Shown: positions 11,810-11,944 of the stretch, piece by piece
Layout of the letters: the number at the start of each line of letters is the position of its first letter
Numbering within the stretch: the stretch's first letter is position 1
Sequence record: MH571750.1
DNA length: 64,000 nt
From: Escherichia phage vB_EcoM-Ro111lw
Reading direction: 5' to 3' (one strand)
Made by a program: the position numbers and the translations under genes
Notes under the pieces: generated by a model
The model's input: only the letters and a program-made list of their open reading frames with translations
The model's database searches: none
What the model was told of the DNA's origin: nothing

Positions 11810-11944
11810 ATTATCTTTGTAGATAAGTTATTAAGCTTACCTGTGAGTATGCGACCACAAAGGGTGAAGGGTAAATTCTAGATTTAAACCCAAAAGGCAC
11901 ATCGCTACAGACCTTAAGCAAGTCTGGGTAGCTTATCTACAAAG
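11810..11944 (+). ncRNA. Structured element closed by a perfect 17-nt inverted repeat (TTATCTTTGTAGATAAG ... CTTATCTACAAAGATAA)
   Basis: Read directly at 11810-11826 and 11928-11944; internal GGTCTG/CAGACC complementarity. Confidence 0.35.

What the first reader, a model, noticed from the sequence alone, without database searches (positions are those of the whole stretch)
11810..11944. Perfect 17-nt inverted repeat enclosing a 100-nt structured segment upstream of tRNA-Lys
TTATCTTTGTAGATAAG (11810-11826) and CTTATCTACAAAGATAA (11928-11944) are exact reverse complements. The enclosed sequence also contains GGTCTG/CAGACC pairing. This could be a long-stem RNA, a protein-binding palindrome, or a cruciform-prone site.
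Basis: seen in the sequence. Interest (0 to 1): 0.4.

Follow-up and report, generated by a model that had tools for sequence, protein, structure and literature searches.

The report
Closing stem of phage noncoding RNA
The inverted repeat is real and most likely forms the long closing stem of a conserved ~140-nt noncoding RNA that sits in the tRNA array of a Felix O1-like phage, beside a tRNA-mimicking Y-RNA-like gene and 1.1 kb downstream of a Ro60-like protein gene, so it probably belongs to a phage Ro/Y-RNA system that is not annotated in any of the GenBank records I inspected.

Summary
The repeat is real, but the coordinates are slightly off. The perfect arms are 19 nt (11809-11827 and 11932-11950), the longest perfect inverted repeat in the window.

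The window is a Felixounavirus. The repeat lies in the 427-nt tRNA-Asp to tRNA-Lys spacer of a 26-tRNA cluster, all on the + strand.

Across Felixouna-, Moogle- and Suspvirus the stem keeps pairing. It shows three compensatory pairs and a coordinated 1-bp indel, and every one-sided change gives G·U on the + strand. This points to an RNA helix rather than a DNA palindrome.

The stem encloses about 100 nt with three hairpins.

One neighbouring module (11671-11811) is a YrlA-type tRNA mimic. Relatives of it lie beside DUF2828 genes in distant phages. The window's DUF2828 protein (9286-10701) models as a Ro60-like ring plus vWA domain.

Best reading: a second, long-stem Y-RNA-like domain cut out of the tRNA precursor. 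Protein binding is inferred, not shown.

Main rival: a plain processing or stability hairpin ahead of tRNA-Lys.

No Rfam family matches. Verdict: new variant of a known kind, moderate interest.

The parts
11809..11827 (+). P1, 5' arm of the long closing stem (perfect 19 nt; can extend to about 11832 with G·U pairs)
   Evidence: pairing conserved with compensatory changes
11932..11950 (+). P1, 3' arm of the long closing stem; ends 4 nt before tRNA-Lys
11837..11867 (+). H1, first internal hairpin. It is poorly defined, and its sequence differs strongly between variant A (this window) and variant B (BPSELC-1, DR094, Moogle-, Suspvirus).
   Evidence: MFE fold; alignments
11869..11891 (+). H2, central hairpin with the conserved AUUCUAGAUU apex. 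In variant B its lower helix covaries.
   Evidence: (columns 59-65/91-97: UA/CG and AU/GC exchanges)
11905..11931 (+). H3, small hairpin CUAC-AGAC-C-UUAAGCAA-GUCU-GG-GUAG. It is a minimal fifth copy of the closing motif of the neighbouring Y-RNA-like modules and can stack directly on P1.
   Evidence: AGACC-N3-6-AGCAA-N0-130-GTCTGG occurs 5 times in the window, all + strand within 11040-11927, 0.024 expected; G-C to A-U compensatory change
11671..11811 (+). Neighbour: YrlA-type tRNA-mimic RNA. Closing helix UUAC/GUAA plus AGACCGU/ACGGUCU; motif UUACAGCAA; V arm 11711-11727; T arm 11732-11748; acceptor-like hairpin 11749-11766; D arm 11769-11783. It abuts P1 with a 2-nt overlap.
11586..11665 (+). 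Short module 3 with the same closing helix and motif (GAGC/GCUC, AGACCAA/UUGGUCU, AUACAGCAA)
11198..11265 (+). Short module 2, filling the tRNA-Met to tRNA-Asn spacer
   Evidence: (42.8 bits)
11031..11112 (+). Short module 1, filling the tRNA-Glu to tRNA-Met spacer
   Evidence: (41.2 bits)
9286..10701 (+). Ro60-like protein gene (Pfam DUF2828 + DUF7788; helical ring plus vWA domain with a conserved DxSxS motif)
11955..12030 (+). tRNA-Lys(UUU). RNase P cleavage at its 5' end would set the 3' end of the element 4 nt after P1 (inferred).
10811..10840 (+). Promoter-like site ahead of tRNA-Pro. The next one is at 12278-12306, so 10867-12262 looks like one transcription unit (consensus match only).
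   Evidence: a promoter is annotated at the position equivalent to 12278-12306 in phage ASO1B

Best explanation
The inverted repeat is the closing stem (P1, 19-24 bp) of a conserved structured RNA domain of about 140 nt. It is transcribed on the + strand as part of the polycistronic tRNA-Pro to tRNA-Ile precursor of a Felix O1-like phage.

Shown:
- P1 is maintained as an RNA helix.
- It encloses a central hairpin (H2) and a small hairpin (H3). H1 is less certain.
- H3 is a minimal copy of the helix-plus-UU(N)AGCAA motif that closes four neighbouring modules.
- One of those modules, directly upstream, is a YrlA-type tRNA mimic.
- Relatives of that mimic lie next to DUF2828 genes in distant phages.
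- The window's DUF2828 protein, 1.1 kb upstream, models as a Ro60-like ring with a vWA domain.

Inferred:
- RNase P cutting at tRNA-Lys releases the RNA with P1 at its 3' end.
- P1 holds the two ends together and shields them from exonucleases, as the terminal stem does in Y RNAs. RNase III may trim it.
- The H3 motif, stacked on P1, is bound by the Ro60-like protein.
- The element would then act as a second, long-stem Y-RNA-like partner (analogous to YrlB or Yrn2) beside the tRNA-mimic one.
For: The IR is statistically exceptional and the fold is stable.

Stem conservation:
- The element is present in about 240 phage records of three Ounavirinae genera.
- P1 has 3 pairs with changes on both sides and a coordinated 1-bp indel. 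All four one-sided changes give G·U. 97.8% of cells are paired, against 29-47% for slid controls.
- A model built only from variant B finds variant A at 53.6 bits.
- The + strand is more stable than the - strand in 21 of 21 variants.

Noncoding:
- No ORF longer than 36 aa overlaps the element.
- Indels among variants are 1-2 nt.

Link to the Y-RNA-like modules:
- H3 is one of exactly five AGACC..AGCAA..GTCTGG sites, all clustered on the + strand.
- The same 5' AG-helix-UUNCAGCAA ... helix-CU-G signature is seen in distant phages.
- The neighbouring YrlA-like family has 29 of 32 pairs covarying. Its hits lie immediately beside Ro-like genes, including in loci with no tRNAs.

Link to Ro60:
- The protein model has pLDDT 88, and the top 11 PDB matches are all Ro60/Rsr/phage Ro60.
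- Chen et al. [quoted passage not shown] Other support:
- In the more distant phage locus L041, a 22-bp stem carries the same motif and ends 3 nt before a tRNA.
- Phage ESCO56 has lost the flanking modules and truncated tRNA-Lys but keeps the element intact.
Against: - There is no expression, end-mapping or binding data.
- P1 is a perfect helix without the bulge that Ro60 recognises in classical Y RNAs, and the GNCGAA motif of YrlA/YrlB is absent.
- The element itself was not found outside Felixouna-, Moogle- and Suspvirus when 75 distant Ro-like loci were searched. The Ro-like protein therefore does not need it generally.
- The interior diverges sharply between two variants, and H1 is not supported by covariation.
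- H3 lacks the C of UUNCAGCAA and has only a 4-5-bp helix.
- Other long hairpins without the motif also sit just upstream of tRNAs in this cluster. A generic processing role could therefore explain P1 on its own.
Confidence: 0.45

Rival explanations
1. P1 is only a processing or stability hairpin of the tRNA precursor. It could be a long double-stranded stem cut by host RNase III, or simply a block to 3' exonucleases and misfolding, placed just ahead of tRNA-Lys. The enclosed 100 nt would have no function of their own.
For: Three long hairpins in this cluster end 1-4 nt before a tRNA that follows a long spacer. These are 11809-11950 before tRNA-Lys, 12471-12534 before tRNA-Arg, and 13109-13198 before tRNA-Leu. 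A 14-bp repeat also brackets tRNA-Ser. In ESCO56 a hairpin of different sequence occupies the same position before a tRNA-like sequence. P1 is a near-perfect duplex of 19 bp or more, about two helical turns, which is the kind of substrate RNase III takes (established knowledge of E. coli RNase III). The interior is far less conserved than the stem.
Against: Parts of the interior are conserved across genera (AUUCUAGAUU, H3). H3 and the lower helix of H2 show compensatory changes. H3 is a specific copy of the module motif. ESCO56 keeps the element although tRNA-Lys is truncated. The two readings are not exclusive.
Confidence: 0.35
2. The repeat acts at the DNA level, as a palindromic protein-binding site or a cruciform-prone sequence, for example in replication, recombination or homing-endonuclease recognition.
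For: A 19-bp perfect inverted repeat could in principle extrude or bind a dimeric protein. HNH endonuclease genes sit in the same tRNA cluster (13538-13951).
Against: The arms are 104 nt apart, which is unfavourable for cruciform extrusion or for a dimeric site. The arm sequences change between variants while pairing is kept. One-sided changes are always G·U on the + strand, that is, mismatches in DNA. The + strand fold is always the better one. The arm sequence occurs nowhere else in the window.
Confidence: 0.05
3. The element is a remnant of a small mobile insertion with terminal inverted repeats (MITE-like), or a decayed tRNA gene with an extended acceptor stem.
For: It has terminal inverted repeats around a variable interior. 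Two very different interiors sit in the same frame, and their distribution does not follow genus limits (variant B occurs in some Felixounaviruses). Its overall shape resembles a cloverleaf.
Against: It is single copy and always at the same site. No genome with an empty site was seen among about 250 records, and there is no target-site duplication. The tRNA model does not match it, and there is no T-loop or D-loop signature.
Confidence: 0.05
4. The region encodes a small protein, as some GenBank records annotate a 'hypothetical protein' over it.
For: ORFs of 35 aa (+) and 36 aa (-) overlap it. Several records carry a hypothetical CDS here.
Against: The ORFs are short and cross structural boundaries. 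The variants differ by 1-2-nt indels. The substitution pattern preserves base pairs, not codons.
Confidence: 0.02

Closest known systems
Bacterial Y RNAs of the YrlA/YrlB type bound by Ro60 (Rsr) (Chen et al. 2014, PMC4201824)
   Same: At least two small RNAs are encoded within a few kb of a Ro60-like gene on the same strand and processed from one precursor. One has T arm, acceptor-like hairpin and D arm in that order (here 11671-11811). Another is built on a long terminal stem (here the inverted-repeat element).
   Different: The partner protein is a DUF2828 family member, Ro60-like by fold only. The GNCGAAN0-1G motif is replaced by AG-helix-UU(N)CAGCAA...CU-G. The RNAs are embedded in a phage tRNA array, with five motif copies. 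The long-stem RNA has a 100-nt three-hairpin interior instead of a small pyrimidine-rich loop. Binding is untested.
Thermus phage phiLo Ro60 with Yrl1/Yrl2 (PMC12135203)
   Same: A phage-encoded Ro60 homologue with two Y-RNA-like RNAs encoded beside it. Each has a 5'-3' stem flanking an internal loop. The phiLo Ro60 structures (9kop, 9l5y) are among the best structural matches to the window's protein.
   Different: The phiLo RNAs carry the CGAA motif and were shown to bind. Here the motif differs and nothing has been shown biochemically.
RNase III processing stems flanking stable RNAs (E. coli rRNA operon stems, phage T7 early-RNA sites; from general knowledge)
   Same: A long, nearly perfect duplex formed by sequences flanking a structured RNA within a polycistronic precursor.
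   Different: No cleavage data. The stem is A/U-rich and only about 19-24 bp. The enclosed RNA is not a known stable RNA.
Stable RNAs of unknown function in the phage T4 tRNA cluster (species 1 and 2 RNAs; from general knowledge, not checked here)
   Same: Non-tRNA structured RNAs co-transcribed and co-processed with phage tRNAs.
   Different: No sequence or structural comparison was made. No Rfam family matched.

Membership tests
Y RNA (generic Ro60 partner) - the inverted-repeat element | Long stem formed by pairing of the 5' and 3' ends | tested here: met
   P1 of 19-24 bp, conserved with covariation
Y RNA (generic Ro60 partner) - the inverted-repeat element | Encoded close to, and on the same strand as, a Ro60 orthologue | tested here: met
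   1.1 kb downstream of 9286-10701, + strand. The protein is Ro60-like by fold but belongs to Pfam DUF2828, not TROVE.
Y RNA (generic Ro60 partner) - the inverted-repeat element | Conserved bulged helix or GNCGAA/GGUCCGA-type Ro60-binding motif in the stem | tested here: not met
   P1 is perfect in variant A, and no GNCGAA is present. A different motif (AGAC-C-UUAAGCAA-GUCU-G) sits in H3.
Y RNA (generic Ro60 partner) - the inverted-repeat element | Physical binding by the Ro60 protein and dependence on it for accumulation | not testable with these tools
   Needs immunoprecipitation, gel-shift or a knockout
YrlA-type tRNA-mimic Y RNA - neighbour 11671-11811 | T arm, acceptor-like hairpin and D arm in that order inside a closing stem, with tRNA-like conserved nucleotides | tested here: met
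   GAAGG-UUCGAUU-CCUUC, ACUCGGC-AGAU-GUCGAGU, GUGU-AAUGGUA-GCAC. 29 of 32 pairs covary across distant phages.
YrlA-type tRNA-mimic Y RNA - neighbour 11671-11811 | GNCGAAN0-1G motif near the 5' end | tested here: not met
   Replaced by AGA-AGACCGU-UUACAGCAA
Ro60 / TROVE protein - ORF 9286-10701 | HEAT-repeat ring plus C-terminal vWA domain with MIDAS motif | tested here: met
   AF2 model pLDDT 88. Top 11 PDB matches are all Ro60/Rsr, E 3e-8 to 5e-7, TM 0.5-0.64. D279-x-S281-x-S283, T349 and D381 are invariant in 52 homologues.
Ro60 / TROVE protein - ORF 9286-10701 | Sequence match to Pfam TROVE or to solved Ro60 chains | tested here: not met
   Pfam gives DUF2828 + DUF7788 only. phmmer against PDB sequences finds nothing. 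31-34% identity to mycobacteriophage proteins annotated 'Ro-like RNA binding protein'.
Any Rfam family | Covariance-model match | tested here: not met
   No match to the element in variant A or B at E up to 10, apart from chance-level hits
RNase III processing stem | Uninterrupted duplex of about 20 bp or more flanking a stable RNA in a precursor | tested here: met
   19 perfect bp, 22-24 bp with G·U
RNase III processing stem | Staggered cleavage in the stem, dependent on rnc | not testable with these tools
   Needs end mapping in rnc+ and rnc- hosts
Intrinsic terminator | G+C-rich short hairpin followed by a U run | tested here: not met
   No + strand terminator-like site in 10750-13300. The stem is A/U-rich with a 100-nt loop.

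The most novel reading that the evidence does not exclude
Felix O1-like phages carry a self-contained Ro60-like/Y-RNA system woven into their tRNA array. It would comprise a DUF2828 ring protein and five RNAs that share a new binding signature (AG-helix-UU(N)CAGCAA...CU-G). One of these is a tRNA mimic, and the inverted-repeat element is a long-stem scaffold. The system would be used to process, protect or quality-control phage or host tRNAs during infection, for example against anticodon-nuclease defences aimed at tRNA-Lys. On this reading the DUF2828 family across T4-like, Campylobacter, Listeria, Staphylococcus and mycobacterial phages would be a widespread viral Ro branch with its own class of Y RNAs.
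Probability: 0.3. Interest if true: 0.7.

Novelty: new variant of a known kind. Interest (0 to 1): 0.45.

Why it matters
Felix O1-type phages are classical typing and biocontrol phages with hundreds of sequenced genomes. In the records I inspected, the 427-nt tRNA-Asp to tRNA-Lys spacer is either left unannotated or carries spurious 'hypothetical protein' or intron-containing 'tRNA-Thr' calls.

Reading it as a set of structured RNAs tied to a Ro60-like protein has three consequences:
- It gives a testable function to a conserved gene of unknown role (DUF2828 / PHROG 850).
- It extends Y-RNA biology to a very large phage protein family, with a different recognition motif.
- It offers a tractable E. 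coli/Salmonella system for asking what Ro-Y RNA particles do for a virus.

The inverted repeat itself is a modest part of this. It defines the boundaries of one of the RNAs and marks a likely processing or protection stem.

Tried and rejected
- **Rfam.** Scans of the cluster and of the spacer in both sequence variants found no family for the element.
- **Permuted tRNA.** I first read 11711-11783 as a circularly permuted tRNA-Thr. I rejected this because the 'anticodon' loop varies in length (6-7 nt) and sequence among close relatives. The layout instead equals the V-T-AS-D order of YrlA RNAs. The 129-131-nt 'tRNA-Thr(GGT)' annotated by tRNAscan-SE in some records is this mimic, misread.
- **Distant homologues of the element.** A covariance model of the element (R2) found nothing in 75 distant loci that encode the Ro-like protein. 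Inverted-repeat scans next to YrlA-like hits in four of five distant loci found no equivalent. Only L041 has long stems.
- **Metagenome scan.** A scan for the 5' junction returned mostly chance matches and only five element sequences, none of them a new type.
- **Loose motif definition.** A motif definition that allowed G·U pairs was too unspecific: 24 observed against 8 expected, maximum 22. I replaced it with the exact composite pattern.
- **Alignment A6.** It mixed both strands because of the palindromic stem and was not used.
- **Literature.** Searches found no paper linking Felix O1-like phages to Ro60 or Y RNAs and no transcriptome for them. Two Y-RNA reviews were not held. The supplements of Chen et al. 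listing phages were not available.
- **Sequence search against PDB.** phmmer of the protein against PDB sequences gave nothing. Only the fold comparison did.

Full report
**1. The observation**

The window is a Felixounavirus (Felix O1-like phage) genome segment. The 601 nt around the finding match about 240 phage records at 95% identity or more.

They lie at 11811-11827 and 11932-11948. The perfect repeat is 19 nt (11809-11827 / 11932-11950, 104 nt apart) and 22 nt at 95% complementarity. It is the longest perfect inverted repeat with a loop of 150 nt or less in the 64-kb window. In 100 Markov randomisations the longest was never above 15 nt. The + strand RNA folds at -48.3 kcal/mol with z = -5.3.

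The element lies in the 427-nt spacer between tRNA-Asp (11451-11527) and tRNA-Lys(UUU) (11955-12030). These belong to a 26-tRNA cluster that is entirely on the + strand. Promoter-like sites at 10720-10748 and 10811-10840, and the next at 12278-12306, suggest that tRNA-Pro to tRNA-Ile is one transcription unit. No terminator-like site is found on the + strand within it.

**2. Conservation of the stem**

The element is found in 242 phage records of Felixouna-, Moogle- and Suspvirus. It always lies in a tRNA-Asp to tRNA-Lys spacer of about the same length.

Two sequence variants exist:
- variant A: this window and most Felixounaviruses;
- variant B: BPSELC-1, DR094, Moogle- and Suspvirus.

On a joint alignment of 15 distinct sequences, the 19 pairs of the stem (P1) are 97.8% paired, against 29-47% when the 3' partner is slid by 1-3 columns. 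Three pairs change on both sides (UA/CG, CG/UA, CG/GC), and one base pair is deleted on both arms together. All four pairs that change on one side only become G·U. G·U on the + strand is A·C on the other strand and a mismatch in DNA. The + strand is also the more stable fold in all 21 variants.

A covariance model built from variant B alone recovers variant A at 53.6 bits. The stem is therefore selected as an RNA helix in the sense of the tRNAs.

The region is not coding. ORFs are 36 aa or shorter, and the variants differ by 1-2-nt indels.

**3. What the stem encloses**

P1 closes about 100 nt that fold into three hairpins.
- **H1 (about 11837-11867)** differs greatly between the variants and is not supported by covariation.
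- **H2 (11869-11891)** has a conserved apex, AUUCUAGAUU. In variant B it has a 7-bp lower helix with several compensatory changes.
It covaries (G-C to A-U) and abuts the 3' arm of P1 with no spacer, so it can stack on it.

**4. The surroundings change the reading**

Four spacer modules share one design. They are at 11031-11112, 11198-11265, 11586-11665 and 11671-11811. Each has a 4-bp outer helix that covaries between copies (UGAC/GUCA, UUGC/GUAA, GAGC/GCUC, UUAC/GUAA). Next comes an AGA/G internal loop, then a helix AGACCNN/NNGGUCU, and then (N)UACAGCAA.

The composite pattern AGACC-N3-6-AGCAA-N0-130-GTCTGG occurs exactly five times in the window. All five are on the + strand between 11040 and 11927, against 0.024 expected. 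The fifth copy is H3 of the inverted-repeat element. H3 is thus a minimal copy of the module's closing motif with the interior removed.

The fourth module (11671-11811) abuts P1 with a 2-nt overlap. It contains, in order:
- a variable hairpin;
- a T arm (GAAGG-UUCGAUU-CCUUC);
- a closed acceptor-like hairpin that covaries (ACUCGGC/GUCGAGU, ACACG/CGUGU, ACCCUUC/GAAGGGU);
- a D arm (GUGU-AAUGGUA-GCAC).

This is the V-T-AS-D layout that defines YrlA-type bacterial Y RNAs (Chen et al. 2014, PMC4201824).

**5. The protein partner**

The ORF 9286-10701 lies 1.1 kb upstream on the same strand. It matches Pfam DUF2828 + DUF7788 and PHROG 850 'RNA-binding protein'. An AlphaFold model built from 52 homologues has pLDDT 88. 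Its best 11 matches in the PDB are all Ro60, Rsr or the Thermus phage phiLo Ro60, over the full length (E 3e-8 to 5e-7, TM 0.5-0.64). A DxSxS motif with the further T and D residues of a MIDAS site is invariant.

The family occurs in 709 phage records, from Vibrio, Aeromonas, Campylobacter, Listeria, Staphylococcus, Enterococcus, Bacillus and Mycobacterium phages. In the mycobacteriophages it is annotated 'Ro-like RNA binding protein'.

**6. The RNA family travels with the protein**

A covariance model of the tRNA-mimic module (R1) was searched in 75 loci around distant homologues of the protein (38-48% identity). It gave strong hits on the same strand, mostly within a few hundred nt of the gene. 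Examples are L115 at 77 bits, L106 with three copies, L089 with two, and L053, L103 and L062. Some of these loci have no nearby tRNAs.

On the resulting alignment 29 of 32 pairs show compensatory changes and 93.8% of cells are paired, against about 40% for slid controls. That alignment is fitted to the model, so these counts lean towards the model's structure.

The shared signature is 5' AG-helix-UU(U/A)CAGCAA ... helix-C(U/A)-G 3'. This differs from the GNCGAAN0-1G motif of YrlA.

**7. How the inverted-repeat element most likely works**

Shown:
- It is a conserved RNA helix on the + strand that closes a partly conserved three-hairpin domain.
- It carries a copy of the family motif.
- It lies directly 3' of the tRNA mimic and 4 nt 5' of tRNA-Lys.

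From the literature: every characterised Ro60 system has at least two Y RNAs processed from one precursor. One is tRNA-like and one is built on a long hairpin.

Inferred:
- RNase P cleavage at tRNA-Lys sets the 3' end.
- P1 joins and protects the ends and may be trimmed by RNase III.
- The H3 motif, stacked on P1, recruits the Ro60-like protein, so that the element serves as a second Y-RNA-like partner.

Two further observations fit this. In the more distant phage locus L041, a 22-bp stem is followed by an AAA/G loop, AGAAG/CUUCU and AUUCAGCAA, and it ends 3 nt before tRNA-Pro. Phage ESCO56 has deleted tRNA-Asp through most of module 4 and has truncated tRNA-Lys, yet keeps the element intact.

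**8. Reasons for caution, and the main rival**

There are no expression or binding data. P1 lacks a bulge and the classical motif. The element was not found beyond three Ounavirinae genera. Its interior is poorly conserved.

Other long hairpins without the motif end 1-4 nt before tRNA-Arg (12471-12534) and tRNA-Leu (13109-13198), and a 14-bp repeat brackets tRNA-Ser. ESCO56 has a hairpin of different sequence in such a position. A generic role for leader hairpins in precursor processing or 3'-end protection could therefore account for P1 without any trans function.

I rate the Y-RNA-like reading at 0.45 and the pure processing or stability reading at 0.35. DNA-level, mobile-element and coding readings are each at 0.05 or below.

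**9. Novelty**

Ro60 homologues and YrlA RNAs in phages have been known since 2014, and a phage Ro60 with two Y-like RNAs was characterised in 2025 (PMC12135203). I found no paper connecting Felix O1-like phages with Ro60 or Y RNAs, and no Rfam family for any of these RNAs. GenBank records leave the spacer unannotated or mis-annotated.

The element is best filed as a new variant of a known kind. It is a long-stem RNA with a non-canonical motif, in a Ro60-like/Y-RNA-like system embedded in a phage tRNA array. As a single feature it is of moderate interest. The surrounding system is the more valuable lead.

Noticed in passing
window 9286-10701 (+): DUF2828 + DUF7788 protein that models as a Ro60-like ring with a vWA/MIDAS domain. 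Homologues occur in 709 phage records across many host genera and are mostly annotated hypothetical or 'RNA-binding protein'.
   Followed up: yes
window 11671-11811 (+): YrlA-type tRNA-mimic RNA (V, T, acceptor-like and D arms inside a closing helix). Some GenBank records call it an intron-containing tRNA-Thr(GGT). Relatives lie beside Ro-like genes in distant phages, with a conserved AG-helix-UUNCAGCAA...CU-G signature.
   Followed up: yes
window 11031-11112, 11198-11265, 11586-11665 (+): Three short hairpin modules with the same closing helix and motif but no tRNA-like domain. Modules 1 and 2 (11031-11112, 11198-11265) almost exactly fill the spacers between adjacent tRNAs; module 3 lies within the tRNA-Asp to tRNA-Lys spacer.
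   Followed up: partly
L005/L006 (Mooglevirus), acceptor-like hairpin of the tRNA mimic: The loop reads ACCCTTC-G-CCA-AACA-GAAGGGT. This is a 7-bp acceptor-like stem followed by an encoded discriminator plus CCA, reminiscent of M. smegmatis YrlA, which is cut by RNase P and carries CCA. It suggests a two-piece tRNA-like product.
   Followed up: no
window 12471-12534, 13109-13198, and 12840-12853 / 12942-12955: Other long hairpins end 3 nt and 1 nt before tRNA-Arg and tRNA-Leu. A 14-bp inverted repeat brackets tRNA-Ser and extends its acceptor stem. A hairpin just before a tRNA seems to be a recurring design in this cluster.
   Followed up: partly
L236 (Escherichia phage ESCO56, OM386665) 880-1110: Natural deletion variant. 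tRNA-Asp, module 3 and most of the tRNA mimic are missing, and tRNA-Lys is truncated and fused to the downstream promoter region. The inverted-repeat element is intact between the two deletions.
   Followed up: partly
window 12760-12840 (+): tRNA-like sequence (GGGACG.../...CGTCCC acceptor, T arm-like GGGGTTCAACTCCTC) with a 9-nt 'anticodon' loop. ARAGORN does not call it, and Rfam tRNA-Sec scores it at 23 bits. It is conserved with changes in ESCO56.
   Followed up: no
window 12204-12388 (+): Weak match to the permuted tmRNA model (29 bits, gathering score 47), starting in tRNA-Ile and running into the spacer after it. Probably chance. However, two distant loci that encode the Ro-like protein do carry phage tmRNA genes (L060, L114).
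   Followed up: no
window 11528-11585 (+): Two hairpins directly after tRNA-Asp (GAGAGGGCUAUUUAGCCCCUC and CCUUAAAGAGUUCUUACGAGUAUUCUUUAAAGG). They are almost invariant across three genera, more conserved than the tRNA mimic's variable parts.
   Followed up: no
window 13538-13951 (+): ORF with a weak HNH endonuclease match, inserted inside the tRNA cluster.
   Followed up: no
L041 11092-11206 (+): In a distant Ounavirinae-like phage, a 26-bp stem encloses a 63-nt pyrimidine-rich loop directly after tRNA-Ser. This recalls the 'long hairpin with pyrimidine-rich loop' type of second Y RNA described by Chen et al.
   Followed up: no
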